A stretch of DNA of 63,991 nucleotides, counting the filler, from Raillietiella orientalis (lineage: Eukaryota), in NCBI GenBank assembly GCA_036172245.1. It is 4 parts of 4 records of this genome, joined end to end, with 100 filler letters (N's around TTAATTAATTAA, not from the genome) between each part and the next. Parts side by side here need not be neighbours in the genome. Positions count along the whole stretch, not along the records: positions 1 to 17,580 come from JAYWIR010000245.1; 3 more parts are not named here. One strand, written 5' to 3'. The translations under genes were made by a program, and so were the position numbers. The notes below the pieces were generated by a model. It ran no database searches. It had not been told where the DNA came from and saw only the letters and a list, made by a program, of their open reading frames with translations. Shown here in pieces: positions 1 through 52,699 of this stretch (the stretch's first letter is position 1; every line of letters starts with the position of its first letter).

Positions 1-129
1 CCCTCGCAATCTCGGTCTTTCGATGTGTCGACAAAGCAGCCCTCCAGGAAGGTTCGAGGTCCTTCCTGGGCTTCGTTCCAAGGCTCTCTTCGGAAGGAGG
101 CAGACAGACAAACTCGACCCCCATTTTTT

Positions 130-1475
130 AGAAGAACATTGAGATGATTCCGACGTTTCATTAGGGTGGGGCACATTGTCCTCTGTGTGGTTTTCATGGT
201 AACCAGTGTCGGAATAAGAAATCGAATGTTTTCCATCGCCCTGATTCATGATGTGTTCCAAGTTTCCACTGTTTGTTTTTTGTACTCTACTCGAAATGAG
301 CAGACTTCAATACTGCACTGGTGCTTCTCTTCCTGACGCATCCATTCGCAGTGAGTTGCAAATTCCCTTGATTGAGAACCGCAGAGCAATAAAATTTGCA
401 GGATCCAAAGTAACATTGAGAAGGGTTGGACACTTGATTAGGGATGGTCACTTTGAACCCTGTATTGTTTTTATAAACACCCGTGTCGGAATTAAGTATT
501 GAATGTTTTCCGTCGCACTGATCCATGATGTGCTCCAAGATTCAACTTTTTGTGTTTCGTAATCAATTCAAAATCAGCAGCCTTTAATATTGCACTGTTA
601 CGTCTCTTTCTGACGGGTCCATTTGCAGTGAGTGGCAGTTTCCCTTCATCGAGAGCCGCACAGCATTCCGATTCCCAGGAATGAGAGTAACATTGACAAG
701 GGTTGGGCACTTCGTTAGGGAGGGGCACTTTGAACTCTATGTTGTTTTCATGGTAACCAGCGTCGGAATTAAATATTGAATGTTTTCAATCGCAATGATT
801 GATGACATCTTCCAAATAAACACTTTTTATGTTTAGTAATCAATTCAAAATCTGGAAACTTCAATATTGGCTTGTTGCGTCTCTTCCTCTCGCATCCATT
901 TGCAGTGAGTGGAAAAGTGCCTTCATAAACAGTGGCACAGCATTCCAACTTTTTGGATTCAGATTGACATTGAAAGGTGTTCGACACTTCATTAGGGTTG
1001 GGTACTTTGAACCCTGTGTTGTTTTCATGGTAATCAGTGTCGGTATTAAATATTGAATGTTTTCCGTGGCACTGATTCATGATGTGCTCTAGGTTTCAAC
1101 TTTTTGTGTTTTCTAATCAAATCTATATCAGCAGGCTTCAATATTGCACTGTTGCGTCTTTTCCTGACGCATTTTTTTGCAGTGGTTGCCTAATTCCCAT
1201 CATGGCGAGCCGCAGAGCATTCCTATTTCCAGGATTCAGAGTAACATTGCGAAGATTCGGCACTTCATTATGGCGGGGCACTTGGAACTCTGTGTTGTTT
1301 TGATGCTAACCAGTATCTTTATTGAATATTGAAGGTTTTCCATCGCACTATTTCATGATATGTTGCAAATTTGCTACTTTTCATGTTTTGTAATCAATTC
1401 AAAATCAGCACTCTTTACCATTGCACAGTTACCTTTTTTCGCGACGCATACATTTGCAGTGAGTGGCCAATTTCT
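130..1475. repeat. ~277-bp tandem satellite, subfamily A (about 5 diverged units)
   Basis: GTTTTCATGGTAAC-like anchor recurs at ~190, 467, 745, 1021, 1297; shared blocks TATTGAATGTTTTC, TAATCAATTCAAAATC, TTTGCAGTGAGTGG. Confidence 0.9.
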
Positions 1476-3445
1476 GTCATGGTGCTATCCGTTTCTACAA
1501 TGTAGAGATAAAGTTTCTTCCCCACAAATTCCTTTTGTGGTCCAAATTTCTAGAGTTTGGTGACTTGAATTCTTTTTCTATTGCTTCCAATTCACCATTG
1601 CTCTCTTTCGAAGCTTCCTCACGGGCGCCCGTACTATGTACGGGTATGCAAATTCACGTTGCTCACATCATCACTGCATCCAGATCCCTTGGAACACCTT
1701 TCGGAATCTCAATAGGCCCAACGTTTTTTAAGGTGGTGCACATTGTTCTTTAAGCTGTTTTCATGGCAAGCATATTTGTAAAAAAGGAATAAAGTTTCTT
1801 CCCCAAAATTCCATTTGTGGTCCTATTTTGCAGTATTTGGTTATTTTAATTGATTTTCATTTGAGTCCAATCCACTAAAGCGCTTTTTCGGTGGTTCCTC
1901 ACGGGTCAATTGGCACGGAGATGCATGTTCACTTTGATAACATCCCCATTGCTTCCGTAACGCTTGCAAAATCACAAAATCGCAGGAGCTTGAAATTTCT
2001 TCAAGGATGTGGACATTGGTTTTTGAATTGTTTCCCTGGCAATAATTTTTGTTCTTTAGGCATCAAGTTTTTTTCCCCCAAAATTCCTTATGTGCACCAA
2101 ATTTTCTGTGTTTGGCGATTCGAAAATATTTTCAATTCCGTGCAATTCACCATTGTGGCAATTCGTAGCTTCATTACGGATCCCTTTCCTCGGGGATGCA
2201 AATAAACGTTCATCGCCTTCCCACTGCATCTCATTCCTTTGTAAGTAGTGAAAAAATCACGAGACACCCAAACTTATTGAAGGAGAGGCACATTTATCTT
2301 TGAGCTCTTTCCATAGCAACCGTTTTACAATGAAGAGATAAAGTTTTTTTTCCCAAAATTTTTTTTGTGGTCCAAATCTCTAGTGTATGCTGATTTCTAA
2401 GTATTTTCAAGTTCGTCCAATCAACCATTGCTCTCCTGCGGAGCTTCCTTCCGGATCACTTTCCACGGGCATGCAAATGCACATTAACCACATTCCTACT
2501 GCGTATTAGTCCTTTGAGAGAAGTGTAAAAATCAAAAGGTACCCATACTTATTCATGGAGGTGCAAATTGTTCTTTTGGTCGTTTTCATGGCAACCATTT
2601 TTACGATGAAGAGATAAAGTTTTTTCCCCCAAATTCCTTTTGTGTGCCAAATTTTAAGTGTCTGATGATTTCAAAGCATTTTATTAGTGCTTCCAATCCA
2701 CCATTGCTCTCCTTTGTTGCTTACTTACGGATCCCTTTCCACGGTGATTCACATACACGTTCATCTCCTCCCCACTGCATCCCAATCCCTTGGAAAAAGT
2801 GAAAAAATTACAAGAGACCCCAACTTATTCAAGGATGGGAACATTGGTCTTGGAGCTGTTTTAATGGCAACCGGTTTTGCAATGAAGAGATCATGTATTT
2901 TTCCTCACAAATTTCTTTTTTTGCGCAAATTTCCAGTTTGTAGTGATTTGAACTCATTTTTAATTGCGTCGTATCCACCATTGAGCTTTTTTCGAGTTTC
3001 CTCACGGGTCTCTTTCCACGGAGATGCAAATGTACGTTCTTCACATCCTTACTGCATCCGAATCCCTTGGAACATCTGAAACGATCACAAGAGGCCCAAA
3101 CTTATTCAAGGATGGGACCATTGGTCTTGGAGCTGTTTTCATGGCAACCATTTTTGCAATGAAGCCATAAAGTTTTATCCCTTAAACTTCCTTATGTGGT
3201 TCAAATTTTCAGTGGTTGGTGATTTGAATGCGTTTTTTATTGTGTGGATTTAAGCATTGCGCTCCATTGGAGCTCCCTCGCGTTATCCTTTCCACGGGGA
3301 TACTAATACACGTTCATCACATCTCCACTGCATCCGAATCCCTCGGAACGAGTGAAAAAATCACAAGAGGCCCAAATTTTTTGAAGAAGACTCACATATG
3401 TCTTTGAGCAGTTTTCATGACAACCATTTTTGCAAAGAAGGGATA
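1476..3445. repeat. ~276-bp tandem satellite, subfamily B (about 7 diverged units)
   Basis: GTTTTCATGGCAAC-like anchor at ~1757, 2027, 2306, 2582, 2858, 3136, 3411; shared blocks GAGATAAAGTTT, TTTCCACGG, CCCAAACTTATT. Confidence 0.9.
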
Positions 3446-3588
3446 CCCTCACCAGCTGTCACTCTTAGATTGGTGTTGCCGAGCCATCTTTTATACTCTT
3501 GATTTTCCCCAAGTCCCACAAGGGGTGGGGTAAATTTGTTTTCTATCAAAATAACATTCACACAACAATTTTACATTCACACTCTCAT

Positions 3589-6500
3589 TCACTCGTTATA
3601 CAAACACTTTTTCACTTTGAAGTCCTTTTGAATCACTAGAGTTCTGCTTTTCAGGGTGGGATTCCAGCTGGATGGTCCCGGGCGTCGTCCTCGATCCTCT
3701 TCAGGATGAATCTGTACGTCCAGGCTTGGATTCTTTCTACAGTTCCTGATGCCGATTTCCTTCTTGATGAGTCCTTGCAGAATCTCCATCGGGTTTGCGG
3801 CTCTCCTGGCTTTCCTCATCTTCCACCACCGCACAAGTATGGCGGTGATGAAGAGGGCAATGGTCGTCCTCACCATGGGATTGTAACAGGGAACATTACC
3901 ATCTCCCTGAAACATCCCGGAGAGGATCTCCATTACGGAGCTGGTGGTACGTCCGATGATCCTTTTCACGATCAGCCAGTCGTGAAGCAGTGTGGGACAC
4001 GTCAAGATGTGGAGTCTTGTATCGATGTCACCACACGCCGTGCAGTCTCTGTCTTCCCTTCTTCTTGTGAAGTGCTGTAGTTGGGACCAGGTCAGGATTC
4101 CTCCATGATAGAACATCAGGAGGTTGTCCTGGGTTTTCGGCGGAAGATCACTCCTCCAGAGCGTTGTGCCGATCGCCAGCAGGTTGATGCGATCGCTCCC
4201 GTAGCGGTCGGCGGCTTCTTGGAGGGCACTGGTGTCTCTTTCATCTTCTTTGATCAGTCTGCGGAGGTTCATTTTGGTAAACCTCGACCACGCGAAGTCG
4301 TTGTGGTTGATCCACACCTCGCGGGTCATGTGGGTGAACCTTCCTAACATCATCTCTATATATTGAAGTATACGAGTGTGGTGTAGGTAGCCTCCTCTTC
4401 TCCACTCCTGGATTCGATGCAGGGTAACTCTGGACCGCCAGTAGATCCAGCTTCTCGTGTCCGGCGGAACAGGAAGCAACCAAGGGATCACCAGGATGGA
4501 CTCGTCCTGCCAGAGTTCCCTGCTTCGTGGCACGATCTTGATTTGGTGCTTCCGCACCAGCCGTTGCTTCCTCCTCCAGGTCGGGTCGATTGTTATCCAT
4601 TCCCCTGCTCGACCTAGCAGCGCAGTCAACAGGCTTTTCGAGTTGTTCAACAACAACGGGTAGGCCCGGTGCGCTGCGTATGGCCAGTCATCCCAGTGAG
4701 CGGCAATGTCCAGGATGTGTCGCGTATCCATGATTTCCATGCAATGTGCAGGCGACTTCATCCCGGAACCGCCTTCTTCTTTGGGACGACACAGGGGTTT
4801 AAGACGAACTCTAGGGCGATAGTGGCCCTACAGTGTTTTGCGCTGCAGCTTCTCTACTTCTCTCGTGGTTTCTTTATTCATTCTTGCGAAGGCCGCCCCA
4901 AAGAGTACCTTTGGAAGGAGTACTCCGTTCCTTAGGTTGGCTCTTCGCTTCATGTTAAAGTCCGGTCGAGTGTATTTCGCCGCTTCTTTAACCGTTTTCC
5001 CCAGGATTTCTGTCCACAGCAGCTCTGACGCAGAGTCGTCGCCGATGTAGACTCTTAGGTACTTGGCCGTGTCCACCGTACGGAATCCACTACCCGTTAG
5101 AGTGGAGAGATCCAGTATTCCGACGGGCAAAAGCTGGCTCTTCTGGGAATTGATTTTTAAGCCCAAGCCCTGTTCCATCAGGTCCACCACATCCAGAAAC
5201 GCACGCTGATTTTTCTCTCCCTTGATGAAGAAGAGTAGATCATCGGCTTATGCCAGATGGGTAAGACATTGGCCATCGATGGTAATCCCGCTCAGTCGTC
5301 CGCTCTTCTCGATGTAAGAAGACAACGCCTCCATGTAGATGACGAACAGCATCGGACTTAGCGAGTCGCCCTGCCGGACTCCCCGTTCCATCCTGATTGC
5401 TGCCGTCTCCTGGCCGTTGATCTTGATCCGGCAGTACTGGTTCTGGAGTACCACCCTCACGAAGTTGCTGAAGTGTTCCGGAAGCCCTAGCTTCTCTAGA
5501 ACCTTCAGCAGCATCCCATGGTCGATGGATTCGAAAGCCTTCTCCATGTCAGTGAACACCAGCGCCAGGTTCTCGCCGACGTATCGGCTGAGTCCGACGG
5601 TGGACTGGGCACACTTGACATTGTCCGACATATGTCGTCCGGGGACTGCACACGTCTGGACCGGAGAGATGATCCTCGACATGACCTTGCCTAAGTGGTT
5701 GGACCAGATCTTCGCCAACCACTTGGTATCGGAGTTCAGGATCGAGATTGGCCTCCATTGAGCGACCTGCGTGAGGTTGCCTCTTTTTGGCAGCAATCTC
5801 ATCCGACTCTCGTAGAAGGACTGAGGGAGGCTTCCTTCTTCGCGGATGCAGAGGGTCAACTGGTGGAACAAACGCAGGTAGGCGTGCAGGTACCGCTGGT
5901 AGTGCGTGCTAGGTACACTGTCAGGGCCCGATGCCACATCCTTGCGTAGTTGGCCAAACGCAGTCTTGACCTCGTCTTCGGAGAATTCCTCCTCCAGTCT
6001 ATTCCTCTGGAGGTCGTCGATCCTCTTCTCGAGATATCCCAGGAAAGCTTTCTGACTGGATCGACAGGGATGTTGTGGTCGGAAGTGTTTCTTGTAATGC
6101 CTGCCAAAGGCTTCCACGATATCCTCCGACGAGTGCCGCTTCTGGCCGTCGTACTGGATGCAGAAGATGTCTGTTGCCAGATTCCTCTTCTCCAGCACAC
6201 CGACTTCCCCTTTCACGTTTTGGAAGACGTACCGGCTCTCGTACTGATCGAAGTACTTTGAGAGGGAGCGATCTTGGATGTTCAGCTCCTGGTACGCTTT
6301 CTGCCTTATTCGATTACTAAAGTACTGCATGTTGCAGAACAAATGGATCCTGTACTTCAACCTGTCCCAGTCGGCGACTCTGCGGATGGTGGTGTCCCGC
6401 AGAATCGCCTCAATGACTTCCTGGTGACAGGGATGCGTTTCGAACCAGGCGGGCATGCAGATGAGCACCGCCTTGGTGGCTTTTTCCTTCCGAGGATTCT

Positions 6501-7170
6501 CTGTGCGGAGTGTTAACCGTACCATTGGGTGATCGGACAACAGGTGTGGAATGTCCCGAAAACCCTGGATGCGGTTGTCTATCTCCGCACTGTAGAGCAC
6601 GTGATCGATCGGTTTGTGGCTAGCTGTTCGGCACAGAAGTCCGAAATCGTCGGACAACCGCCGATACGCCGCTCTTTCTCTTGCATCCTGAGAGTACTTG
6701 ATCTCGTCGAGGATATTCAAATCACCCGCGACGATGATGATGTCCTTCGGTGCCACTCGTTTGCGGAGTTCTTCGTGTAGTTTTTCCGCGCACCGATGCT
6801 TGAGATCTTGAGGTCCGTACACGTTCACCAGAAAGAGGTGAACGTTGCTGGACCAGGACAGTCGCACGCCGATGATCCTACCAGGTACCGGACAGAAGGT
6901 TTCCAGAATGGTGTGGGCGAGCTCGTTTTCGATGAGGATCGCCACCCCCATGGTCTTCTTTTGTCCTTCGCTGGTGAACAGTTGCCCGTTTAACCGACGT
7001 TTCATCTCCAGGGCGTTCTGGTGCCCGAGATGGTGGGTTTCCTGAAGGCACACTACATCTTGTCTTGCGATGGTCCGCATGACACTTTTCCTTTTCCCCT
7101 GGTCCGTCAGTCCATCCACATTCCAGGAGGCGATGTTGATCCTCCTGGCACTGGACAGCGACGAGGCCAT
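3589..7170 (-). pseudogene. Family A ORF2: AP endonuclease + reverse transcriptase, disrupted
   Basis: ASWNVDG, CLQETH, VNVYGP, AGDLN, IDH, SDH (APE); WRPISILN, DMEKAF, GVRQGDSLSP, KYL (RT); CTAC..HILTC. YADD reads *ADD (TAA at 5248), second stop at 4828, frameshift near 4765. Confidence 0.93.
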
Positions 7171-7182
7171 GAAAGGGGGAGT

Positions 7183-9104
7183 CTACTTGCCAGTCTTTCT
7201 TGCTTTCCTCAACTTCTTCTGCTGGGGAGACCTTTGCAGTTTCCTCGTGGAAGAAGTGGGTTTCTCACTACTGGCATCGCTCTCGGTGCCGGTGTGATCA
7301 GTGGACTCGAATTCGTCCACAGAGCGTTTTGCCTCGGCGATCACCTTGCGCGGGAGGGTCTCCAAGGAAACCGTCGCACAGTAGACCGCCTTCACATCAC
7401 TGAGCTGGGCCTCCAGCTTCTCCCGCTCTGGTTCCACAACCATGCGGTTGATGTCGTCCTGGGCCTCGCAGATGCGATTCAGGAGTTGCTCCTGCTGCGT
7501 CTCCGGTTGGCTCTGACGGACCTCCTCTGCCAGCTTGATTACCTCCTCGGTGAGTTGCAGGGAGTCCTGCGACTCCGGGGTGTACTCTGGCGTCTTCTTC
7601 TCCTCTCTCTCTTCCGCCACCACCTCCATGCTCTCGCCTACTGCCGCTTCAGCTTCCTGGGTAGGAGGAATTTGGTGCTCCCTGGCAAGCATCTTCCTCC
7701 TCCTTTTCTTTCCCACCTCCACGAAACCGTCCGCCGAAACCGGAGCGGCCTCTCTCGCCTTCTTTTGCTTTTGTAGCTGAGGTTTAATCACCTCATCCAA
7801 CACCCTTTCCCTCACGGGGATTCTCCTCTCATCGTCCGGTAGTTGGCGTACTCCGGACAACTCCATTTCGCATGCCCGGGTTGCCTGCAAAAGGAGCAAA
7901 GCTCGGGCATCTTGCAGTTCCGGACCTGGTGGCCCATCTTCCCACAGCGGAAGCAGCGGGAACTAGGGCAGGCACCTAGCCGGTGGCCGAAATTTTCGCA
8001 GCCAGTGCAGAAGATTGGCTGCTGCCTGTACCTGACTGAGACGTCTTTCGACGCGTCGTCAATCAGTACATTTCCGGGGATTTCTGCCCCCTCTTCCAGT
8101 TTGATTTGTCGATTACCTCGCCCGAGAAGATGTTTCCGGAGATATTCTGTGTTTTCATCACCAGAACTTCTCCGTATTGGGACAGGAAGTCCCACACCGT
8201 TTCCCTCTCTGTGAGGATGCCAAGCCCGTTTAGGAAGACGGTCGTGTAAGGCATTTCGCCAAAGCCTTGGACCATCTTCCCCTGAATATTAATGCTTTTT
8301 TCAATTAGGGCCTCATGCAGCTCCTCGCAATCCGTGTATAAAATAAATCCCGCTGAATTAGGGATTATCGCTTGGAGGCGGTCGAAATCTACATTGGTTT
8401 TCTAGAGTGTGCAATACACCTCCCTCACGTTGTTAAACCGGATCAGACCGGTTTTAAATGTAATCGGCTTGGACGCCAAGCTGAGTCGAAACATCGGCTC
8501 TTTCGTTCGAGTGATGTTCTCACTCGCCGGTTTGCCGAACACCCTATTCGGCTGTACAGAGGCCTGCCCGCCGTCACCGACGCATAAGAAAAGGGCTGCG
8601 ACGCCGCAGCCGAACAAGATGGCGTCGCTCCCTGCACCGCGTGGACGCCCGCGGGTCCCGCCTGGGACGCCGCCGCCGCGGGCTCAAACCTCGAGGTTGC
8701 CGCCTTTACCGCCGCGGGCGGCACCCTCGGCATCGCAGCCGCAGGCGCGACCTTCTTCGCCGCGGGCACGATCCTCGGCGTCGCCGCCGCGGGCACGACC
8801 TCCGCCGTCGTCGCCGCGGGCACGACCCTTGGCATCGCCGCCGCCGGCGCAGCAAAGCCCGCCGCGGGCGCGATCCTCGGCATCGCCGCCCCCACCTCGC
8901 CAGTGCCGCTAATTACCTCCATGGCTTCCTCCATGGGGGACGCTGGCCGCTCCACACTTCTTCCTCCGGACTGCCTCCTGATGGCCGCCGTGGCTGCCGC
9001 TGGAGAGCTTCGGAGGTCTCCCACCTGAGGGTCCTCTTCGCTGCTGCTGCTGTTGGAGATGTCCCTCGGTGGCACTGTCACTTCCGCACTTTCCTTTTCA
9101 AATA
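7183..9104 (-). pseudogene. Family A ORF1 (gag-like, 3x CCHC), frameshifted
   Basis: CTGCENFGHRLGAC, CFRCGKMGHQVRNC, CSFCRQPGHAKWSC; acidic/charged tail; Ala/Pro N-terminal repeats; split over several frames. Confidence 0.9.
8680..8890 (-). repeat. GC-rich coding minisatellite in ORF1 N-terminus (MPRxxPAA units)
   Basis: Repeated GCCGCGGGCACGAYC blocks; shorter version in copy 2 at ~52380-52545. Confidence 0.75.
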
Positions 9105-9246
9105 CTTGCCCTCTCGGGGCACGCAAAAATTGCCGCGGCAGTGGTTTTACTCACTGCCTTGGCGGGGTATTGGGTAAAGTTTTCAACTAGCAATAATCAC
9201 GGCTTAGTCACCTTCCTCGCCTATGATACTGCCCGTGCGCAAGTGT
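9105..9246 (-). ncRNA. U4: U4 spliceosomal snRNA (gene or full-length copy), ~142 nt
   Basis: Minus strand reads ACACTTGCGCACGGGCAGTATCATAGGC...GTGATTATTGCTAGTTGAAAACTTTACCCAATACCCCGCC, stem GGCAGTG/CACTGCC, Sm site AATTTTTG, terminal hairpin TGCCC/GGGCA; matches the recalled metazoan U4 layout including both U6-pairing segments. Confidence 0.93.
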
Positions 9247-9275
9247 GAACTTTGACATTTTCCAGCTTTCTGGAT

Positions 9276-9294
9276 CATCTTTCATACTCTTTGA
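9276..9294 (-). promoter_or_regulatory. Candidate snRNA proximal sequence element (alternatively a target-site duplication)
   Basis: TCAAAGAGTATGAAAGATG at about -48 to -30 of U4; near copy at 3485-3502. Confidence 0.35.
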
Positions 9295-9349
9295 CTTCTT
9301 TTTCTACATGAAACCATGTGCTGGCATGAAATAGGTTTGCCTTTATACT

Positions 9350-9799
9350 TCACCCGGTAACAACGTAAGTCTGCTCCAGGCTAATTACGTATTCGGCTAC
9401 CTGTCCTAGTCGCGCAGCCCACAGTTTCGCGATTAACTTGACGTCCGTTTTAATAACCGTGATCGGACGCCATTTGTTTAACTTACGGAGGTCTCCTCCC
9501 TTTGGAAGAAGCGTCATCTTAGCTGACCGGAACGAGGCGGGAACATCGCCTTCTTTTCGGATCAGCTGTGTCAACTTATGCACCTAGTGGGTTAACTCTG
9601 CCGCGAAGCTTTGATAAAACTCCGCGGGAAGGCCGTCTTCCCTTGGTGCCTTCCGACTCTTGAGCCTTTTTATTGCGGTGATGATTTTACAGGTCGTAAA
9701 AGGCTGATCGAGGCTTGGCATCTCTTCCTCCTCTATGGTTGGGTCTCCGTCCGGGAGCAGCAGTCGCGAGGCATCCCGCTCGGGAGGCGCCCTGGCGTG
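9350..9799 (-). mobile_element. L1/Tx1 RT fragment
   Basis: KAPREDGLPAEFYQ, LLPKGGDLRKLNKWRPIT, EQTY. Confidence 0.9.
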
Positions 9800-11643
9800 A
9801 GAACGTGTTTTTTCTGCGCTTCTGTTGCACATGTTTGCGAAGCCTTTTTTAAGTGTGTTTGTGAGAGGTGCATCGCCAGTGTCTCATGGCGGGAATGCCT
9901 GAGGACACCACGATGGAAATTGGAGGGGGAGAGGCATGTTTCTCTCCGCAACCCACGTAGGTGGGGGAAACCGCCCCCAAGGAGAAGAGGGCAACCGTTC
10001 CCTTGAAAAGTGGGGCAACCGCCCCCTCGGAAGTATGGGCAACCTTCTCCTTGAGAAAGGGGGCAAAGACCCTCCTGAAAAAGGGTTCAACCGCTTCCTT
10101 GGAAAAGGGTACAATCGCCACCCTGGAAAAGGACGCAACCGCTCCTTTGAAAAAGGGGGCAACCGCGTCCGTGGATCCGTCTTCTGTAAACACGAAGACC
10201 TGGAGCGCCGTGGCTGCAGCGCAATTTCCTGCACCCTTAGCTGAGCAGCGCGCCTACCTGGAACAAAGATACAAGCTGTCCTTGATTCACAAGGTAGGAA
10301 ACCTGTTCGTTGGAAATAAAATCCCTTTATTTCGAGAGGGAATTGCAGCTGCTTCAAGTTAAAGAGGGGGACCTGCTAGGTCTTTCAGTGCTCAGTGGGG
10401 GTCAGCAGGTGGAGCTAACTTGTACAGATGCAAGCCTGGCTCAGCACCTGCTGAATATATTCTTTATGCTGGAAAGCAAAAGGGTCTTCCCGGAAACCGA
10501 GGATCGCTCGGTTGTTGCATACCTCACAGGAGTTATCCTCCACATGACGAAAAGCGGCAATCAGGAGGAACTCAGCAAGTACGGCACTGTTCACGCGCTG
10601 TGGACCAAGCCGAAAGTCTTCCAAACCTATGGAAGATCGTTTGGCGGCATGGCTGCAGCGCGCGTAAGCGTGCATGAAAACAGTGGGCTGCCCCACAAGC
10701 TGGACGTCGGCAACGAGACGGTCGACGTCTGGTACGTGGGCAAGCCCAAGTACAGCGGAAACTGCGATGCCAGAGGGAACCTGAAAAAACGGTGCCCTCA
10801 CATCCAGTGTTTTCACTGCGGGAGAAGGGCCACCTCCGGAAAGTGTGCTAAAGCAGGAACCTCCAGCGCCCTCTGCCTTGAAAAAAGGTAAGGGGAAACG
10901 CTTGGAGAAAACAAGCAAGCCCACTGAGGCAAAGGAAAGGCAGAGCAAAAAGCCAGAGTCCGAATGCCCCCAGCAAACGGCGGTCGAGAAAACTCCCGAC
11001 GACGCTAGTGACAACAAGGACTGGCGGACAGCGAAGCCGAAAAGTAAAAAAAGCCGAAAAACCGAAGAACCGACAGCGGAACCCGCGACAACTTCTCTAA
11101 ATAGAAGGCAACGCCGCGCTTTGCTCCGCGACTGCTCGGTCGCTTTGGAGCGCGTGGTGGTCCCCGAGACCGTCACCGGGGGAGATATTTCCCGCCTCGT
11201 TGCCGACGAAGACGCGATCACGGAAGGCAAACCCTCTGTGCAAACAGAGGAAGAGACGTGCGACGCGCTCTCCGCAATCGAGAACGCTGCCTTCCAGCAG
11301 GCGGCGGAAGAGCTCGCTGCAGAACTCGCCGACCGTGAGAGCGGCTCTCAAAAGGCCTTGCGAAGGCCGGCCGCGAGCAAGACACCTCCGACAGGTGACC
11401 AAGACCCGGAAGCCGGAAGTGCGTCCTCCTCCGCGGAGGTGCCTCCCAAGACTGGACGGAATTCCAAGAATCCAAAGGGGCGCATCCCGACGAAAAAAGA
11501 GGGGGACGCACCGGCAGCCGAGGGGGAAGCCGGCAGCGTGGGAACAAAGGAAGGGATTTTCCCACCCTCCGCTACCGAGCAGCTGGCCACCCCATGGAGG
11601 AGGCTGAGCAGGTAGGTAATTGCCTCCCCCTGCCACCGCTGGG
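9800..11643 (+). mobile_element. L1/Tx1 element F: 5' UTR + decayed ORF1 (ATG 9886)
   Basis: AACGTGTTT start; TWSAV, PHKL, VDVWYVGKPKY, degenerate knuckle and CFHC; stops and frameshifts. Confidence 0.88.
9967..10168 (+). repeat. 24-bp coding tandem repeat (ATAPLKKG-like, about 8 units)
   Basis: GCAACCGCYCCYTTGAAAAAGGGG-like units in tandem. Confidence 0.85.
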
Positions 11644-17580: not shown

Positions 17581-17680
17581 NNNNNNNNNNNNNNNNNNNN
17601 NNNNNNNNNNNNNNNNNNNNNNNNTTAATTAATTAANNNNNNNNNNNNNNNNNNNNNNNNNNNNNNNNNNNNNNNNNNNN
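17581..17680. other. Artificial contig linker
   Basis: N44-TTAATTAATTAA-N44, stops in all six frames. Confidence 0.97.
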
Positions 17681-18020: not shown

Positions 18021-21000
18021 TACTCCGGCACGTTTATTAAGAAAACGTTTTATTCGTCATTACAGTACGTGGTACAAGGCCCCACTAACGGCCACTCAGT
18101 GCCGGACCTGCCGGGACACTGGGACGCAGCCCGGTGTGACTCTCCTCGGCAGTGGAAGGGAATGGGGGGAAAAACAAAAAGAAAAATAAACCAGTAAAAA
18201 AAAGAAAACAGTTTTTGGAGGGAAGGGAAGGGATCACAGTCCACTGGGAGGAGGGTCCATCCTTAGTAGGATACCCTCGAGGTCCTCCTTCAATCTTCCC
18301 AGCTAGGGCCATCCAATCGCTCTCCACAGGAAGCGAATAGCATATGGGATGACGTCCATTACGGTGGAATCTTCATCTTCGGCATTACTCCAGGCCGCCA
18401 CGATACCACGGATGCAGCAAAGTGCTGCGAGGGCTGCGTCTGGACTGAGGGCGTCCCGCACGAAGAGAAGACTGTAAACATTCCTGGGGTTGCCGTCTTC
18501 CGGTATACCGAGGGCCGTTCCAAGACGATCGCAAAGAATCCGGACGGCACAGCAGTCAACTAGGAGGTGGGGGAGCGACACCCGCTCCCCACACCTTGCA
18601 CACGCAGGATCTACTCTTCCCCGCGTCCTGTGGAAGCGGCGCGCGTTGCAAGGTAGACCCCAATGCAGCCACAGAAGCGCCGATTCTTGCCACTTCAGGG
18701 GAAGAATCCTGGATCCAAGTAGAACCGGGGGCCAATTGAGGTCATCCAATCGAATGCCGAGCAGCTCGCCCCATCTTCTTAATCCACGCGGCTGGACACT
18801 TGGGGTCGTAGCATCTGTCAGCTCTCCCATGGTCCAGCCGCTCATTATCTTCTCTCTGCCTGCTATACGGCAGCAGACTTGCCACCTCGGCTTCCGGCTT
18901 TCGTGAAGCGCCCTTTGGAGGAAGGGCATTGCCGTAGCAAGGGGTGTCCCTTCCGCCCACTTGCAACTCGCTGGAAATTGAAGAATTTCACGCAGGGTGC
19001 GGCGGGCGTAGAAGCCGATTCGCAGGCAGTTCCACGTTTCGTGGCTCCTCTCATGTATCTTCGCCCACGTGCCAACAGTCTCCTCCAGCCATGCGGAGGA
19101 GTTGGCGGGGCAGCATACCATACAGCCGTTCTCCTTAGCCAAGGTTGACATGCGTCCAAGGAGCAGGCCGCATCTTCTCATCTTCCGGCCGGAGCACAGA
19201 AGATAAGACGCTAGTCCTTGCGTCCTGGAGACACGGCTGGCAAGAAGGCGGGCCGGAATGCACCAAGTGGTGCTCCGCAACTTCGCTGCGATGGCCATCG
19301 TGCGCCATCGCAGCTGGATTTCCAAGCGCTCCAGAGTCAGGAGACCAAGACCGCCGTCCCGACGCGGAGCGCATAAGTCCGTCAGAGGCACTCTAGGCCT
19401 CCCTTTTCCCCAGAGGGCGATCCGGAGTAGGTCCTTGGTCCTCTTCTTCAACAGGGTAGGGACGGGGCAAACAAAAAGCAGGGGACGAAGGATGGGAGCC
19501 GCGGACGCGTTCCATACCGCGGCTCGTTCCGGCAAGAGGAACGGAACGGAACCTTGCCCTCCAGGAACGGGCCGATCGCCGACTCCACTTTTTGGAGACG
19601 ACCTGACCAGGCTTCTGACGGGCAGAAGTCCCCCAACGGCACGCCAAGGTACTTCAGGTACCTGGCCGCGGGGATCCCCAAGCGGATCCAGTCAGGCCGT
19701 CCAGACCACGTCGCACCAACCTCCACCACCGACGACTTAGCCTTGTTCACCCGCAGTCCCGTCCTGCGGCTTAACAGATCGAAGAAATCGTCGACTGCAG
19801 CTGCCGGGGTGGACATGGGTAACATCAGCAGATCATCGGCGTACGCCGCTACGGCGGGCGTGCCGGGGCACGAGCTCGGCAGGGGGGCCGAAGTCTCCCT
19901 GTACGCCCTCAGCACCAACTCAAAGTAGGTGCTAAAGAGCAGGGGGCTGAGGCTGTCGCCCTGCCTTATGCCCCGCCGCAAAGGCACGCCATGCACCTTC
20001 TGACTGCTGAAAGAGACGGAAATTATCGCATGGCGCCAGCAGGAGCGCAGGTAGTTGATCAAGGTGGGTGGAAAGCCCATGCGACCCAGGAGATCCAAGA
20101 GGAGGTCCTGGTCCACGCAGTCGAACGCCTTATGGAGATCGACTGCGATCGCTACGGCCCCCTTTCCCGCCCGGGTGTCCCTTCCCTGTCCCACTGGCGG
20201 CCCAAAAGTGGGGTTGCAAATTTTCCCGTTCCCTTCCTTCTTACTCCGCTGCGCGTGCATCCATGTGCTCGCGAGGAAGAGGTTGTCCTCCATACTTCGC
20301 CCGGGAACAGCGAAAGTCTGCTCCGGGCTAATTATGGAATTGGACACCTGCCCCAATCGCGACGGCCACAGCCCGGCGATCAACTTGGCGTCCGAGTTCA
20401 CAATCGTGATCGAACGCCAGTTGCTTAGTTTCCGGAGGTCTCCTCCCTTCGGAAGGAGCCTCACCCTGGCTGACCGAAACGAGGCGGGAACATCGCCTTC
20501 GTTTCGGATCAGCCGTGTCAATTGGAGCACCAGGGGGGCCAGCTCTTCCGCGAAGCTCTGAAAGAACTCCGCGGGCAAGCCGTCCTCCCCTGGCGCCTTA
20601 CTCCTTTTGAGCCTTTTGATACCAGCGAGAATTTCGCAGGTCGTGAAAGGCTCATCGAGGCTTTCTCTGTCCTCCTCCCCTATCGCCACGGAACCACTCA
20701 TGAGCAATCGCCGCGAGGCATCGCGTTCGGGTGGTGTTTTGGCGTGAAGGGAGGAATAAAAACACCGCACGAGATTCCGTACCGCAGCCGGGGACGAACG
20801 TTCCCGGCCCAGATCATCCAGCATGCTGGCCGACCCGGATTACCAGGCTTGCCGCTCGGCCCCGCCACGGTATTCGGCCATGCGACGGACATTGGGGTTC
20901 CTCTCGTGACGACGCGCGTGCAAATACGCGCTTTCGTTGCGAGCCCCCTCGCCAAATCCCCGGGGCACACGGTGCAAAGGGAACTGCTCGCAGAACTCCC

Positions 21001-35152: not shown

Positions 35153-35252
35153 NNNNNNNNNNNNNNNNNNNNNNNNNNNNNNNNNNNNNNNNNNNNTTAA
35201 TTAATTAANNNNNNNNNNNNNNNNNNNNNNNNNNNNNNNNNNNNNNNNNNNN
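35153..35252. other. Artificial contig linker
   Basis: N44-TTAATTAATTAA-N44. Confidence 0.97.
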
Positions 35253-47215: not shown

Positions 47216-50200
47216 TTTTCCCCAAGTCCCACGAGGGGTGGGGTAAATTTATTTTTCTAAAATTTTTCTATAAAAACATTCACACTACAATCTCATCCAT
47301 ACCATTAGCACTTTTCTCTTTTACCACTATGAATTCCTTGGATTCTCACAAGTTCTGCACTCATGGTGGGTTTCCTACTGTTTGGTCCCGGGCGTCGTCT
47401 TCTATCCTCTCCAGGATGAATCGGAACGTCCAGGCTTGGATTTTCCCACAGTTTCTAATGCCGATTTCCCTTTTCAGGAGCCCTTGTAGGATCTCCATCG
47501 GTGGTGCGGCTCTTCTGGCTTTCCTCATTTTCCACCACCGCACAAGTATGGCGATGATGAAGAAGGCGATGGTCGTCCTCACCAAGGGATTGTAACAGGA
47601 AACATTACCATTTCCCTGAAACATCTTGGCGAAGATCTCCATTACGGATCTGTTCGTAAGTCCCATGATCCTTTTCAGGATCAGTCAGTCATGCAGCAAT
47701 GAGCTACACGTCAAGACGTGAAGTCTCGTGTCGATGTCTCCACATGCTGTGCAGTCTCGATCTTCCCTTCTTCCGGTGTAGTGCTGCAATCGGAACCCAC
47801 TCTGGATTCCTCCATGATAAAACATCAGGAGGTCATCCTAAGTGCCCGGCGGAAGGTCACTCCTCCAGAGCGTCGTGCCAATCGCTAACAAGTTGATCTG
47901 GTCACTCGCATAGCGATCGGCGGCTTCCTGGAGGGCACTGATATCACTGTGTTCTTCTTGAATTAGTCTTCGGAGGTTTGTTTTGGTTACCCTGGACCAC
48001 GCAAAGTCGTTGTGGTTGAACCACACTTCGCGAGTCATGTGGGTAAACCTTCCTAACAACATCTCTATATACCTAAGTATACGAGTGTGATGTAGGTACC
48101 CTCCACGTTTCCACTCCTGGATTCGTTGAAGGGTAACTCTGGACCGCTGGTGAATCCAGCTTCTCGTGTCCGGCGGGACAGGAAGCATCCAAGGGATTAC
48201 CAGGATGGACTCGTCCTGCCAAAGTTCCCTACTTCTCGGCACGATCTTGATTTTGTGCTTTTGCACCAGCCGTTGCTTCCTCGTCCAGGTTGGGTCGATA
48301 CTTTTCCATTCGCCTGCTCGGCCTGGCAGCGCAGTCATCAGGCCTTTCGAGATGTTCAACAACAACGCGTAGGCCCTGTGCGCCGCATACGGCCAGTCAT
48401 CCCAGTGAGTGGCAATGTCCAGGATGTGTCGCGTATCCATGATTTCTATGGAGTGTGCAAGCGAATTCATCCCTGAACCGCCTTCTTCCCTGGGACGACA
48501 CAGGGGTTTTAGTCGGACTCTTGGGCGATAGTGGCCCCACAGTGTTTTCCTCTGCAGCTTGTCGAACTCCCTCGTGGTTTCCTTGTTCATCCTCGCGAAG
48601 GCCGCCCCGAAGAGCACTTTTGGAAGGAGTACTCCGTTCCATATGTTGGCCTTTCGCTTCATTCCAAGGTCCGTTCGGGTGTACTTGGCTGCTTCCTTGG
48701 CCGTTTTCCCTAGGATCTCGGTCCACAATAGCTTCGACGCGGAGACGTCGCCAATGTAGACACCCAGGTACTTGGCCTTGTCCACCGTACGGAATCCACT
48801 ACCCGTTAGAGTGGAGAGATCCAGAATTCCGACGGGCAAAAGCTGGCTCTTCTGGGAATTGATTTTTAAGCCCAAGCCCTGTTCCATCAGGTCCACCACA
48901 TCCAGAAACGCACGCTGATTTTTCTCTCCCTTGATGAAGAAGAGTAGATCATCGGCGTATGCCAGATGGGTAAGACGCTGGCTATCGATGGTAATCCCGC
49001 TTAGTCGTCCGCTCTTCTCGATAAAGGACGACAACGCCTCCATATAGATGACGAACAGCATCGGACTTAGCGAGTCGCCCTGTCGGACTCCTCGTTCCAT
49101 CCTGATTGCTGCCGTCTCCTGGCCGTTGATCTTGATCCGGCCGTACTGGTTCTGGAGTACCGCCCTCACGAAGTTGCTGAAGTGTTCCGGAAGCCCTAGC
49201 TTCTCCAGAACCTTCAGCAGCATCCCGTGGTCGATGGAGTCGAAGGCCTTCTCCATGTCAGTGAACACCAGCACCAGTTTCTCGCCGACGTATCGACTGA
49301 GTCCAACAGTGGCCTGGGCACACTTGACATTGTCCGACATGTAACGTCCAGGGACTGCACACGCTTGGACCGGAGAGATGAGCCTCGACATGACCTTGCC
49401 TAAGCGGTTGGACCAGATCTTCGCCAACCACTTGGCATCCGAGTTCAGGATCGAGATTGGCCTCCATTGAGCGACCTGCCTGAGGTCGCCTCCTTTTAAC
49501 AACAATCTCATCCGACTCTCGTAGAAGGACTGTGGAAGTCTTCCTTCTTCACGGATGCAGAGGGTCAACTGGTGGAACAAACGCAGGTAGGCATGCAAGT
49601 ACCGCTGATAGTGAGTGATGGGTACGCTGTCAGGGCTCGCTGCCATGTCCTTGCGTAGTTGACCTAACGCAGTCTTCACCTCGTCTTCGGAGAATTCCTC
49701 CTCCAGTCTGTTCCGCTGGAGGTCGTCGGTCCTCTTCTCGAGATAGCTCAAGAAAGCCTGTTGACTAGAGCGACACAGCTGTTGTCGCCTGAAGTGTTTC
49801 GTGTAATGCCTGTGAAAAGCATCCACGATGTCCTCAGACGACTGTCGCTTTTGGCCGTCGTACTGGATACAGAAGATATCTGTTGCCAGAATTCTCTTCT
49901 CCAGCACGCCGACTTCCCCTTTTATGTTCTTGAAGACGTACCGACTCTCGAATTGATCGAAGTACTTTGAGAGTGATCGATGTTGGATGTTCAGCTCCCG
50001 GTACGCCTCCTGCCTCAAGCGCCTATCCCCGAACTCCATGTTCGCAAACAGGTGTATCCTGTGTTTCAGGCTGTCCCAGTCGGCGACTCTTCGGAATGTT
50101 GTTGCCTTCAGAATCGTCTCCAGGACAACCTGATGTCCGGGATGGGTTTCGAACCAGGCGAACATGCTGATGAGCGCCGCCCTGGTGCCTTGCCTCCGCC

Positions 50201-52599
50201 GAGGATTCTCCGTTCTTAGGGAAAACCGCACCAGGGGGTGATCGGACACCGTAGTCATAGTGTCGCGAAACCCCTGGATGCGGTTCCCAAGTTCGGTGCT
50301 GTGAAGGACGTGATCGATTGGCTTGTGGCTTGCTGTTCGCCACACCAGTCCGAACTCCTCGGATAGCCGTCGATACGCCGTCCTTCCTCTGGCGTCTTCC
50401 GAATGAATGATCTCATCCAAGATGTTGAGATCGCCAGCAACAATCACGACGTCCTTAGGGGCGACCTTTTGCCGGAGTGCTGCATGCAGCGCCTCCGCAC
50501 AACGAAGTTTTAGCCTGTGCGGCTAGCACACGTTCACCAGGATGAAGTGAACAGTAGCGGACCGGCCAGTCGCACGCCGATGATTCGTCCGGTTTGGGGA
50601 CAGAACACTTCCAGAATAGTAGGGGCAAGTTGTTCTTGATTAGGACCGCCACACCCTGCGTGTACAGTTCTCGTGTCGCTGACGAAAATCTTCCCGTTGA
50701 ATCGCCGTTCCATTTGCTGACTAATCTCGAGACCCATCTTGTGGGTCTCCTGCAGGCACACTATGTCTTGCTGTGCAATGGTCCGCACAATCCTTTTTCT
50801 TTTTCTCTGGTCGACCATACCGTTGACATTCCACGAGGCGATGTTCAGCCTCCTGGCGGTCGATAGGGAAGAGGCCATAAAAGGGGAAGACCTATTTTTT
50901 GGCCTTCCTGAGCTTCTTCTGTCTGAGAGAGCGTGCTCTTCCAGACAATGAAGAAGCAGCGGGCCTCTCGCTGCCGGCGTCACTGTCTGTTCCGGTGAGG
51001 TCGGTTACTTCCGCTTCCTCCGTCGAGTGTTCGGCTTGCGGGATCAGTTTTCGAGATAGCGTCTCTATCTGGACCTTGGCGCAGAAGTTCGCCTTTACGT
51101 CGAGAAGCTGTTCCTCTAGCTTTTCGCGCTCGGTGACCTCCACAACCTGGTTGACCTTCTCCTGTGCATTGCAGATCTTCTGCAAGATTTTCTCTTGCTG
51201 GGGACCGCTCTGCACCTCTAGGACTTCATTAGCCAGTGATGCCAACTCCTCCGTAGATTGCAGGGCCTCCTGCGACACCGGAGTGGCTTCGGCTATTTCT
51301 TCTTCCGCGCCTTCCTGCGCTACCTCCATCTTCTCGCCTTCTTGCTCTTCACCTTGTAGGATAAGAGAAGTTTCTTGCTCCTTGACGAGCATCCTCCTCT
51401 TTCCTTTCTTCCCTACCTGTATGAAGCCGTCTTCCGATACCGGGACGGCTTCTTTCACTTTCTTCGGCCTTCCTGCCTTCTGAGGCTGTTCCGCCTCCTT
51501 AATGTTACTCTCTCTCACGGGAGAGAGACCTCGAATCCTTCTGCAGTTTGCAAACTCCGAACAGCTCCATTTGGCATGTCCGTGTTTCTTGCAGAAGGAG
51601 GACACCCCTGGCTGCGGGCAGTTTCGCACTTGATGTCCTACTTTGCCTCAGCGGAAACAACGACACGTTGGGCAAGAGCCGGCCCTGTGGCCGAACTGCT
51701 TTGCACCCGGTGCAGAATATCGGTTGTTGCCGGTAACGCACGTTCACTCCCTGGAATTGTTCGTCAAGAACGGCTAATCCAGGGATCACAGCTCTCTCTT
51801 TCAACTTCATTTTGGCGATCATGTCGCCAGAAAATATATTTCCAGAGAAGTTCTGGAATTCAAGGTCCAGAACTTCCCCATACTGCTCCAAAAAGTTCTA
51901 CACCGTTAGTTGCGGTGTGAGGATGGAGATGCCGTTCAGAAAGACGGTTGTGTATGGCATTTTGCCAATGCCACAAACCATCCTCCCTTGTATATTGATC
52001 CCCTTCTGGATCAATCGCTCTCTAATCTTTTCACAGTGTGTGAAGACTGTGAACCCATTGTTTGCTGGTGTGATCGCCTGTATGCGATCAAAATTCATGT
52101 CCGTTTTATCGAGGGACAGATACACCTCCCTGATATTACTGAACTTGATCAGCCCAGTCTTGAAAATGATGGGCTTCACATTCGGCCCTAACTCCACGAT
52201 CGGCCGATCCACCTTTTGGACTTTACCGCATAGCGACTTCCCGAATTTTCTTGGTGGGTGGACACTCGCTTGTCCCGCAGCCACCGACGCATAGGAAAAG
52301 GGCTGCGCCGCCGCAGCCAAACAAGATGGCGTCTCGCCCTGAACCGCGTGGATGCCCGCGGGTCCTCCCTGGGACGCCGCCGCTCCGAGCGCAACCCTCG
52401 ACGTCGCCACCGTTGCCGCCACGGGCGGCACCCTCGGCATCGGCGCCGCAGGCGCGACCTTCGCCGTCGTCGCCGCGGGCACGACCCTTGACATCGCCGC
52501 TATCGGCGCAGCAAAGCCCGCCGCGGGCGCGATCCTCGGCATGCCTGCCACCGCCTCGCCGTTGCCGCACGTTACCTCCATGGCTTCCACGGGGGACGA
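47216..52599 (-). mobile_element. L1/Tx1 family A copy 2, 5' end cut by contig end
   Basis: Colinear with copy 1; ORF2 ATG 50878; 869-codon open stretch 47838-50447 with intact YADD; frameshifts in APE, ORF1 and C-terminus. Confidence 0.95.
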
Positions 52600-52699
52600 N
52601 NNNNNNNNNNNNNNNNNNNNNNNNNNNNNNNNNNNNNNNNNNNTTAATTAATTAANNNNNNNNNNNNNNNNNNNNNNNNNNNNNNNNNNNNNNNNNNNN
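52600..52699. other. Artificial contig linker
   Basis: N44-TTAATTAATTAA-N44. Confidence 0.97.

What the first reader, a model, noticed from the sequence alone, without database searches (positions are those of the whole stretch)
3485..9294. Full-length U4 snRNA fused head-to-tail to an L1/Tx1 retrotransposon, bracketed by a repeated 18-19-mer
Seen: a complete U4 (9246-9105) lies on the same strand and directly abuts the open ORF1 frame of family A, with no 5' UTR or RACGTGTTT start between them. TCAAAGAGTATGAAAGATG lies 29 nt upstream of U4, and TCAAGAGTATAAAAGATG follows the element's 3' AAAA directly. Known: Tx1-group elements are often specific for multicopy RNA genes (Keno for U2, Mutsu for 5S, Dewa for tRNA arrays), and U6-L1 chimeras arise by template switching. 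I know of no U4-specific family. Inference, three models: (a) insertion at the U4 3' end with readthrough from the snRNA promoter; (b) the 18-mer is a decayed target-site duplication and U4 travels as the element's head; (c) the 18-mer is the snRNA promoter element and is the cut site. Only one junction is visible, and copy 2's 3' end sits in another element's ORF1, so targeting is not strict.
Basis: partly seen in the sequence, partly recalled or inferred. Interest (0 to 1): 0.85.

Follow-up and report, generated by a model that had tools for sequence, protein, structure and literature searches.

The report
U4 snRNA riding on a LINE retrocopy
A complete copy of the spliceosomal U4 RNA sits on the front of a near full-length LINE jumping gene, and both were pasted as one piece into another LINE; this is a known kind of composite, but here it probably reflects a LINE lineage that lives next to U4 genes.

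Summary
Rfam finds one full U4 (9246-9108, minus strand, 89.4 bits), followed on the same strand by a ~5.6-kb APE/RT LINE ('family A') that ends in GGGGAAAA at 3503. A second copy on another piece of the window fixes that 3' end.

An 18/19-mer occurs only twice in the window, directly after the LINE's tail and 29 nt before U4. It behaves as a target-site duplication. The unit 29 nt + U4 + 173-nt ATG-free leader + LINE therefore arrived in one event.

The landing site is not a U4 gene. Upstream lies the reverse-transcriptase region of another LINE ('X'). The 18-mer is not shown to be a promoter element, and neither family-A target resembles U4.

My best reading (0.45) is that U4 was already on the RNA template, co-transcribed or 5'-transduced from a source copy lying behind a U4 gene. 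The main rival (0.35) is a one-off template switch onto U4 snRNA.

Among 80 distant LINE relatives from metagenomes, 7 carry U1, U2 or U5 sequence, always in sense. One intact element carries a U5/U4-derived head.

Earlier scan notes report U4-headed LINEs and LINE-U4 arrays on other pieces of this genome. I could not check them.

Conservative verdict: new member of a known kind.

The parts
9276..9294 (-). 5' copy of the target-site duplication (19-mer)
   Evidence: matches the 18-mer at 3502-3485 with one mismatch and one extra A; these are the only two occurrences in the window
9247..9275 (-). 29-nt 5' extension inside the duplication, origin unknown
   Evidence: no other match in the window; not significantly like the linker of LINE X paralogues (112 of 1000 shuffles reach the score against the closest copy)
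9108..9246 (-). complete U4 snRNA sequence
   Evidence: RF00015, 89.4 bits, model 1-138 of 138; Sm site and both stem-loops aligned
8935..9107 (-). leader between U4 and the first ORF1 ATG; holds a weak 3'-box-like motif at 9105-9090
   Evidence: no ATG in any frame over 8935-9105; open frame is chance-level; no exact 3' box; one 2-mismatch match starting 3 nt after U4
7183..8934 (-). ORF1 of LINE family A, frameshifted, with CCHC zinc knuckle
   Evidence: (PF00098, E 2.7e-05)
3589..7170 (-). ORF2 of LINE family A: endonuclease, reverse transcriptase, zf-RVT; two in-frame stops
   Evidence: (PF03372 3.9e-15, PF00078 7.5e-21, PF13966 0.0041)
3503..3588 (-). 3' UTR ending GGGGAAAA
   Evidence: homology to copy 2 ends exactly at 3503/47216
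3485..3502 (-). 3' copy of the target-site duplication (18-mer)
9295..9800 (-). target: RT-region fragment of another LINE (family X), cut again at 9800 by an antisense LINE
   Evidence: tblastn 9287-9784, E 8e-23; 76% to 20261-20747
3446..3484 (-). 39 nt of unique flank between the duplication and the satellite
   Evidence: satellite homology ends at 3445; the 57 nt at 3446-3502 match nothing else except the 19-mer
47216..52599 (-). second family-A copy, 5' end lost at the end of its assembly piece

Best explanation
One target-primed reverse transcription event inserted a composite RNA into the RT linker of an older LINE (X) and left an 18-19-bp target-site duplication. The composite was 29 nt + complete U4 + the full-length family-A LINE. 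That step is shown by the sequence, and I rate it at about 0.8.

The next step is inferred. U4 was already part of the template RNA because the source family-A copy lay directly behind a U4 gene. The transcript ran from upstream of U4 through U4 and its short 3' flank into the LINE. This is a 5' transduction or co-transcript, of the kind site-specific LINEs use when they depend on their target gene's transcription.

On this reading the 29 nt is the U4 gene's proximal upstream flank. The first bases after U4, with the 3'-box-like motif, are its downstream flank. This copy is an off-target, dead-on-arrival retrocopy. The stated confidence is for the inferred step.
For: Single event:
- The repeat occurs only twice, and one copy starts exactly at the element's 3' end.
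- U4 alone has no flanking repeat of its own (1467 of 2000 shuffles reach the score).

Co-transcript:
- 29 nt of foreign sequence lie inside the duplication, upstream of U4's first base. A single jump onto mature U4 does not give this. Kojima 2015 describes 31- and 42-nt 5' extensions of snRNA-headed SINEU-2 and traces them to master-copy flanks or further jumps (PMC4494074, section 17 read).
- A 2-mismatch match to the snRNA 3'-box consensus starts 3 nt after U4. There are 129 such starts on both strands of the window, so by my arithmetic the chance of one within 30 nt is roughly 0.03. The consensus is quoted from PMC9006982 (passage).
- The LINE part is complete, with an ATG-free 171-173-nt leader.
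- In 80 distant relatives from metagenomes, Sm-class snRNA sequence was found in 7 loci. All 10 gathering-level hits lie on the LINE's strand.
- The junctions I read show true snRNA-gene insertions: U1 in L019 and L049, U2 in L005, L047 and L064.
- One intact element (L023) has a head made of U5 and U4 5' pieces and sits at a non-U4 site.
- Unchecked scan notes report U4-headed LINEs and LINE-U4 arrays on other pieces of this genome.
Against: - No genuine U4 gene of this genome could be read, so neither the 29 nt nor the bases after U4 are shown to be U4 gene flanks.
- The 3'-box match is weak, lies closer to U4 than in mammals, and the organism's own signal is unknown.
- The transcript would have to start upstream of the normal U4 start site.
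- The only other family-A copy has lost its 5' end, so U4 is seen on 1 of 1 readable 5' ends.
- The two family-A target sites are unrelated to each other and to U4 (615, 914, 191 and 583 of 1000 shuffles reach the scores).
- Family A groups with the window's own X family, not with any snRNA-associated metagenome element.
- In the metagenome relatives the upstream snRNA part is a 5' fragment, not a complete snRNA as here.
Confidence: 0.45

Rival explanations
1. One-off chimeric retrocopy by template switching. The family-A reverse transcriptase reached the 5' end of its own RNA, jumped onto a mature U4 snRNA and copied it completely. It then jumped once more, or added filler, for 29 nt before the 5' end was joined.
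For: - U4 is complete at both ends and in sense, and both parts lie inside one duplication.
- U1, U2, U4, U5, U6, U3 and 5S chimeras with LINE-1 are known in human (Law and Burns preprint, passages).
- Tx1-mobilised SINEU elements gained U1/U2 pieces at their 5' ends many times (PMC4494074, sections 17-18).
- L023's head consists of 5' portions of U5 and U4 in series. Serial jumps with internal entry would give this pattern.
- One scan note reports U4 and U1 heads on copies of one lineage (unchecked).
Against: - The 29 nt needs a second event.
- In human chimeras the LINE part is usually strongly 5'-truncated; here it is complete.
- The 3'-box-like motif after U4 would be coincidence.
Confidence: 0.35
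2. In-situ reading, the reader's models (a) and (c). This is a resident U4 gene into whose 3' end the LINE inserted, and the 18-mer is a promoter element or the family's cut site.
For: - Relatives do insert into snRNA genes.
- U4 scores well above the Rfam gathering threshold.
Against: - Homology to LINE X's RT region runs to about 65 nt upstream of U4, leaving no room for a normal snRNA promoter context.
- The duplication encloses U4 instead of lying at the U4-LINE joint.
- No U4 sequence follows the element.
- The motif occurs only twice.
- Copy 2 has a different 3' flank.
Confidence: 0.05
3. The arrangement comes from two unrelated events or an artefact. Either a U4 retropseudogene and a LINE landed side by side, or the contig is misjoined and the 18-mer match is chance.
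For: - The region is a dense nest of LINEs with many insertions.
- The window is stitched from four assembly pieces.
Against: - Repeat statistics: 0 of 100 and 1 of 2000 shuffles, and the 3' copy starts within a base of the element's end.
- No separate repeat flanks U4.
- No third copy of the motif lies after U4 (3300 and 2812 of 5000 shuffles reach the scores).
- The stitch points are far from this locus.
Confidence: 0.1

Closest known systems
snRNA/LINE-1 chimeric retrocopies of mammals (U6/L1 commonest; U1, U2, U4, U5 also listed)
   Same: The snRNA lies 5' of the LINE in sense. One target-site duplication surrounds both. The LINE keeps its own 3' end.
   Different: Here the LINE is full-length with its leader and both ORFs. 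29 extra nt precede U4. The element is a distant APE/RT LINE: its nearest database proteins are about 26% identical over nearly the whole query, and short partial matches reach 32%. Similar cases seem to recur in this genome (scan notes, unchecked).
SINEU of crocodilians (U1/U2-derived heads, mobilised by Tx1-Mar; Kojima 2015, PMC4494074)
   Same: Sm-class snRNA sequence forms the 5' head of a retroposon moved by an L1/Tx1-type machinery. 5' extensions of about 30-40 nt come from master-copy flanks or further jumps.
   Different: SINEU is short and non-autonomous, and its heads are U1 or U2. Here the body is an autonomous-type LINE and the head is U4. Heritability of the head is shown for SINEU and not shown here.
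snRNA-gene-specific LINEs: Keno (Tx1 group, U2) and Utopia (U2)
   Same: The domain architecture is of Tx1/L1 type. Distant relatives fetched here sit in U2 and U1 genes with 13-19-bp duplications.
   Different: Those elements interrupt the snRNA gene, so snRNA sequence lies on both sides. Here a whole U4 lies only upstream, inside the duplication, at a non-U4 site. The Utopia paper lists only Keno, Utopia, Dada-U1 and Dada-U6 as snRNA-gene targeting (passage).
5' transduction and target co-transcription (SVA-MAST2, R2 in 28S rDNA, as discussed in PMC4494074 section 18)
   Same: Upstream non-element sequence is carried along inside the duplication because transcription starts in the flank.
   Different: The source locus is not identified here. 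The carried piece is a whole small-RNA gene body.

Membership tests
snRNA/LINE chimeric retrocopy (template-switch type) | snRNA 5' of the LINE, same orientation | tested here: met
   U4 at 9246-9108 and the LINE at 9107-3503, both on the minus strand
snRNA/LINE chimeric retrocopy (template-switch type) | one target-site duplication encloses both parts | tested here: met
   18/19-mer, 2 occurrences only; 0 of 100 and 1 of 2000 shuffles
snRNA/LINE chimeric retrocopy (template-switch type) | duplication abuts the first base of the snRNA | tested here: not met
   29 nt (9275-9247) lie between
snRNA/LINE chimeric retrocopy (template-switch type) | LINE part keeps its own 3' end at the 3' duplication | tested here: met
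   homology with copy 2 ends at 3503, directly before the 18-mer
snRNA-gene-specific LINE (Keno/Utopia type) | snRNA gene sequence on both sides of the element at a fixed position | tested here: not met
   no second U4 piece in the window even at E<=1; flanks are unlike U4
snRNA-gene-specific LINE (Keno/Utopia type) | independent copies at the same target | tested here: not met
   copy 2's 3' end lies antisense in another LINE's ORF1 region; the flanks are unrelated (2 copies examined)
5' transduction / co-transcript | non-element sequence at the 5' end inside the duplication | tested here: met
   29 nt + U4
5' transduction / co-transcript | carried sequence is colinear with the flank of a source locus | not testable with these tools
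   no whole genome is held; scan sequence look-ups found nothing
heritable snRNA-headed retroposon (SINEU-like) | several copies share the same head-body junction | not testable with these tools
   the only other copy is cut at its piece end, 10 nt before the ORF1 ATG
L1/Tx1-group LINE | APE + RT + C-terminal zinc-binding domain in ORF2; ORF1 with CCHC knuckle | tested here: met
L1/Tx1-group LINE | placement inside the Tx1 clade against named reference elements | not tested
   No named references were in hand. In one search family A groups with the window's X family (SH-aLRT 98), apart from 79 metagenome LINEs that include snRNA-specific ones.
functional U4 snRNA gene | promoter context upstream and 3' box downstream | tested here: inconclusive
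   Upstream from about -65 is LINE X. There is no exact 3' box and one 2-mismatch match at 9105-9090.

The most novel reading that the evidence does not exclude
Family A belongs to an autonomous LINE lineage that lives on U4 genes. It sits directly behind a U4 gene body and is transcribed from the U4 promoter through a weakened 3'-end signal. It therefore spreads as a U4-headed RNA. Copies may home back into U4 sequence, including each other's heads, which would build LINE-U4 arrays. That would be the first U4-specific retrotransposon and an autonomous counterpart of the snRNA-headed SINEU.
Probability: 0.25. Interest if true: 0.8.

Novelty: new member of a known kind. Interest (0 to 1): 0.5.

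Why it matters
If U4 is only an accident of copying, this is one more snRNA/LINE chimera, unusual only in being full-length and non-mammalian.

If the U4 piece comes from a source copy parked behind a U4 gene, it points to a retrotransposon lineage that borrows an snRNA gene's promoter. U4 would then join U2 as a LINE target. It would also give a simple route by which snRNA-derived heads arise on retroposons.

The question can be settled from the assembly alone, by comparing family-A 5' ends with the flanks of genuine U4 genes.

Tried and rejected
- Whole-genome search: no genome is held for this window.
- Scan look-ups by sequence and by place (near, relatives) returned nothing.
- Homology of the 19-mer, the 29 nt or the 39-nt 3' flank to the RT linker of four LINE X paralogues: none beats shuffles (97 to 1000 of 1000 shuffles reach the scores). 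Similarity therefore cannot say which of these bases belong to X. A 48-bp duplication that was later partly deleted remains a less economical alternative.
- Satellite derived from the LINE's 3' UTR: no similarity above shuffles.
- A separate duplication around U4 alone: none.
- A third copy of the 18-mer right after U4: not significant.
- Target sites resembling U4: not significant.
- Exact snRNA 3' box: absent.
- Protein database search: 104 relatives, the best full-coverage ones only about 26% identical, and none of the close hits carries an informative family name.
- Tree: family A is not sister to the U4-headed metagenome element L023. Only 79 of the 80 loci were used, because L035 had no segment spanning residues 470-610.
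- Coding reading of the leader: rejected as chance-level.
Full report
**What is there**

Rfam's U4 model matches 9246-9108 on the minus strand. The score is 89.4 bits against a gathering score of 46, and the model is covered end to end. A more permissive scan of the whole window (E<=1) finds no second U4 or U4 fragment.

On the same strand follow, in order:
- a 173-nt leader;
- a frameshifted ORF1 with a CCHC knuckle;
- an ORF2 (7170-3589) with endonuclease, reverse transcriptase and zf-RVT domains, broken only by two in-frame stops;
- an 86-nt 3' UTR ending GGGGAAAA at 3503.

**Boundaries**

A second family-A copy lies on another piece of the window. The window itself is four assembly pieces joined by N/linker blocks at 17581-17680, 35153-35252 and 52600-52699.

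blastn aligns copy 1 (8942-3503) with copy 2 (52598-47216) at 77.9% over 5483 columns. The alignment stops exactly at the GGGGAAAA ends, after which the flanks differ. The 3' boundary is therefore firm. Copy 2's 5' end is cut by the end of its piece about 10 nt before the ORF1 ATG, so this window offers only one 5' junction.

Directly after the tail comes TCAAGAGTATAAAAGATG (3502-3485). The only other match in the window at up to 3 mismatches is at 9293-9276. With one extra A this becomes the 19-mer 9294-9276. Chance expectation is 0.03 matches, and 0 of 100 shuffles gave two. When the first 30 nt of the 3' flank are aligned to the 200 nt upstream of U4, 1 of 2000 shuffles reaches the observed score.

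I read this as an 18-19-bp target-site duplication. The insert is then 29 nt (9275-9247) + U4 + leader + LINE. U4 alone has no flanking repeat, and the motif does not recur after U4.

**The landing site**

Upstream of the 19-mer lies the RT region of another LINE, which I call X.
- tblastn with family-A ORF2 hits 9287-9784 (residues 372-537, E 8e-23).
- blastn aligns 9314-9800 with three paralogues at 76, 71 and 68%.

In the three paralogues read directly, and in a further X-family copy at 21795-23300, the frame runs on through a hypervariable linker of 32-36 residues into the AVAVDL-(H/R)-(K/N)-AFD motif. In the copy here the frame reaches the 19-mer and breaks off.

Because the linker is hypervariable, neither the 19-mer, the 29 nt nor the 39 nt after the 18-mer can be shown by similarity to belong to X. 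X is also cut at 9800 by an antisense LINE that starts AACGTGTTT at 9802. On the other side, 39 unique nt separate the 18-mer from a 275-277-bp satellite that ends at 3445.

This is not a U4 gene locus, and the 18-mer has no feature of a promoter element.

**The leader**

The first in-frame ATGs are at 8934 and 8922, and the second sits in a good start context and is kept in copy 2. The 171 nt before the first ATG contain no ATG in any frame, and 912 of 5000 shuffles are equally free of stops. It reads as an ordinary leader.

Five other LINE starts in the window begin RACGTGTTT and have leaders of roughly 85-110 nt. Family A has no such start.

**Family A**

Between the two copies, over 1040 aligned ORF2 codons, differences per codon position are 0.117, 0.078 and 0.251. 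Most of their divergence therefore arose while the lineage was still coding.

The two 3' targets are X's RT linker in sense and another element's ORF1 region in antisense. They resemble neither each other nor U4. Within this window there is no sign of site specificity.

**Relatives elsewhere**

The nearest proteins in the large database are about 26% identical over nearly the whole query and carry no informative family name.

With an alignment of 14 sequences I fetched 80 distant LINE loci from metagenome contigs. I scanned all 416,810 bases with Rfam at gathering level. Seven of the 80 loci hold Sm-class snRNA sequence. All 10 hits lie on the LINE's strand. An eighth locus holds a 5S gene in antisense.

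Reading the junctions and a permissive rescan shows the following.
- L019 and L049 are LINEs inside U1 genes, with duplications of about 13 and 18-19 bp. L019 also has an intact paralogous U1 gene with the same upstream flank in the same contig.
- L005, L047 and L064 sit in U2.
- L046 follows a complete U1 plus an A15 run.
- L023 has both ORFs open. Its head is the first 79 nt of U5 fused to about 37 nt of the U4 5' end (Rfam U4 28.3 bits, E 0.014, below gathering; alignment to the window's U4). It lies 341 nt behind a full U5 and has no U4 or U5 remainder downstream.

In a quick tree of 84 RT segments, family A groups with the window's X family (SH-aLRT 98) and apart from all 79 metagenome rows. 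The snRNA-associated rows are scattered. The association with snRNA genes is thus a trait of the wider group, not evidence about family A itself.

**Earlier scan notes**

These are AI notes and unchecked. On other pieces of the same genome they report two things:
- complete U4 on LINE heads inside single duplications (e1-7592583, e1-7590796, e1-7631437, e1-7592755, e1-7592754, the last also with U1 heads);
- head-to-tail LINE arrays in which the upstream element ends at about U4 nt 19-20, or the next element starts just behind U4 (e1-7632066, e1-7510149, e1-7633528, e1-7633542, e1-7632789).

I could not read those sequences. They raised my prior that U4 association is a property of a lineage here and not a single accident.

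**Weighing the mechanism**

The single-event insertion is well supported. Two routes remain for how U4 got onto the template.

A jump of the reverse transcriptase onto mature U4 explains the exact, complete, sense U4. It is a known process: passages of the Law and Burns preprint list U1, U2, U4, U5, U6, U3 and 5S chimeras and note that the LINE part is usually truncated. Kojima 2015, sections 17-18, describes recurrent U1/U2 additions on SINEU. This route needs a second event for the 29 nt.

A co-transcript from a source copy lying behind a U4 gene explains three things at once:
- the 29 nt, as upstream flank;
- the complete LINE;
- the weak 3'-box-like motif starting 3 nt after U4. This is a 2-mismatch match, one of 129 such starts on both strands; there is no exact match; the consensus is from a passage of PMC9006982.

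I put the co-transcript at 0.45, the one-off jump at 0.35, two events or an artefact at 0.10, and the in-situ gene or promoter reading at 0.05.

**Comparison and novelty**

The locus works like a mammalian snRNA/LINE chimera or a 5' transduction. It resembles SINEU in having an Sm-class snRNA head on an L1/Tx1-type retroposon. It fails the tests for a Keno/Utopia-type insertion at this locus.

I found no U4-specific retrotransposon in print.
- The search 'U4 snRNA' + 'non-LTR retrotransposon' + 'target' gave 5 papers.
- The search 'U4 snRNA' + 'retrotransposon' + 'chimeric' gave 5 papers.
- None describes one, judged from titles and abstracts.
- A passage of the Utopia paper names only Keno, Utopia, Dada-U1 and Dada-U6.

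The held library is incomplete, and Repbase reports are not in it. The preprint's supplementary tables, which list the human chimeras, were not seen.

**Limits**

There is one 5' junction, no access to genuine U4 genes of this genome or to the other windows, and no reads. The classification as Tx1 group rests on domain architecture only.

Noticed in passing
window 17581-17680, 35153-35252, 52600-52699: The window is four assembly pieces joined by N44-TTAATTAATTAA-N44 linkers. Neighbourhood across these points is not real, and copy 2 of family A lies on a different piece from the U4-LINE.
   Followed up: yes
window 115-3445: A 275-277-bp satellite (about 12 units at 70-75% identity, in two phases or variants) abuts the insertion site 39 nt beyond the 18-mer. 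It is not related to the LINE's 3' UTR.
   Followed up: partly
window 42190-42260 (+): A LINE X paralogue is broken right after its KAFD codons by foreign sequence. This fits scan notes of a family that targets the RT KAFD motif.
   Followed up: no
window 9802, 11646, 16343, 45866 (+), 40130 (-): Five LINE 5' starts share RACGTGTTT (5 matches against 1.03 expected) and have leaders of about 85-110 nt. The one at 9802 cuts LINE X in antisense at 9800.
   Followed up: partly
L019:1-6210 and 7540-7730; L049:480-520 and 6080-6146: Two metagenome LINEs sit inside U1 snRNA genes, with U1 5' parts upstream, U1 resuming after the A-rich tail, and duplications of about 13 and 18-19 bp. L019 has an intact paralogous U1 gene as an empty site. 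The passage I read from 2015 lists no U1-specific LINE, and a further search found none.
   Followed up: partly
L023:2067-2760: An apparently intact LINE (ORF1 612 codons, ORF2 1159 codons open) has a composite head of U5 nt 1-79 fused to about 37 nt of the U4 5' end. It lies 341 nt behind a complete U5.
   Followed up: partly
L005:74-99 and 5786-5960; L047:15-55; L064:1-37: Keno-like U2 junctions. The upstream U2 stops at about nt 26-41, and in L005 U2 resumes at about nt 41 after the A-rich tail. L064 joins U2 almost directly to ORF2, with no ORF1.
   Followed up: partly
window 3592-7170 vs 47442-50561: The two family-A copies differ mostly at third codon positions (0.251 against 0.117 and 0.078). 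They therefore represent sublineages that diverged while active, not one decayed insertion pair.
   Followed up: yes
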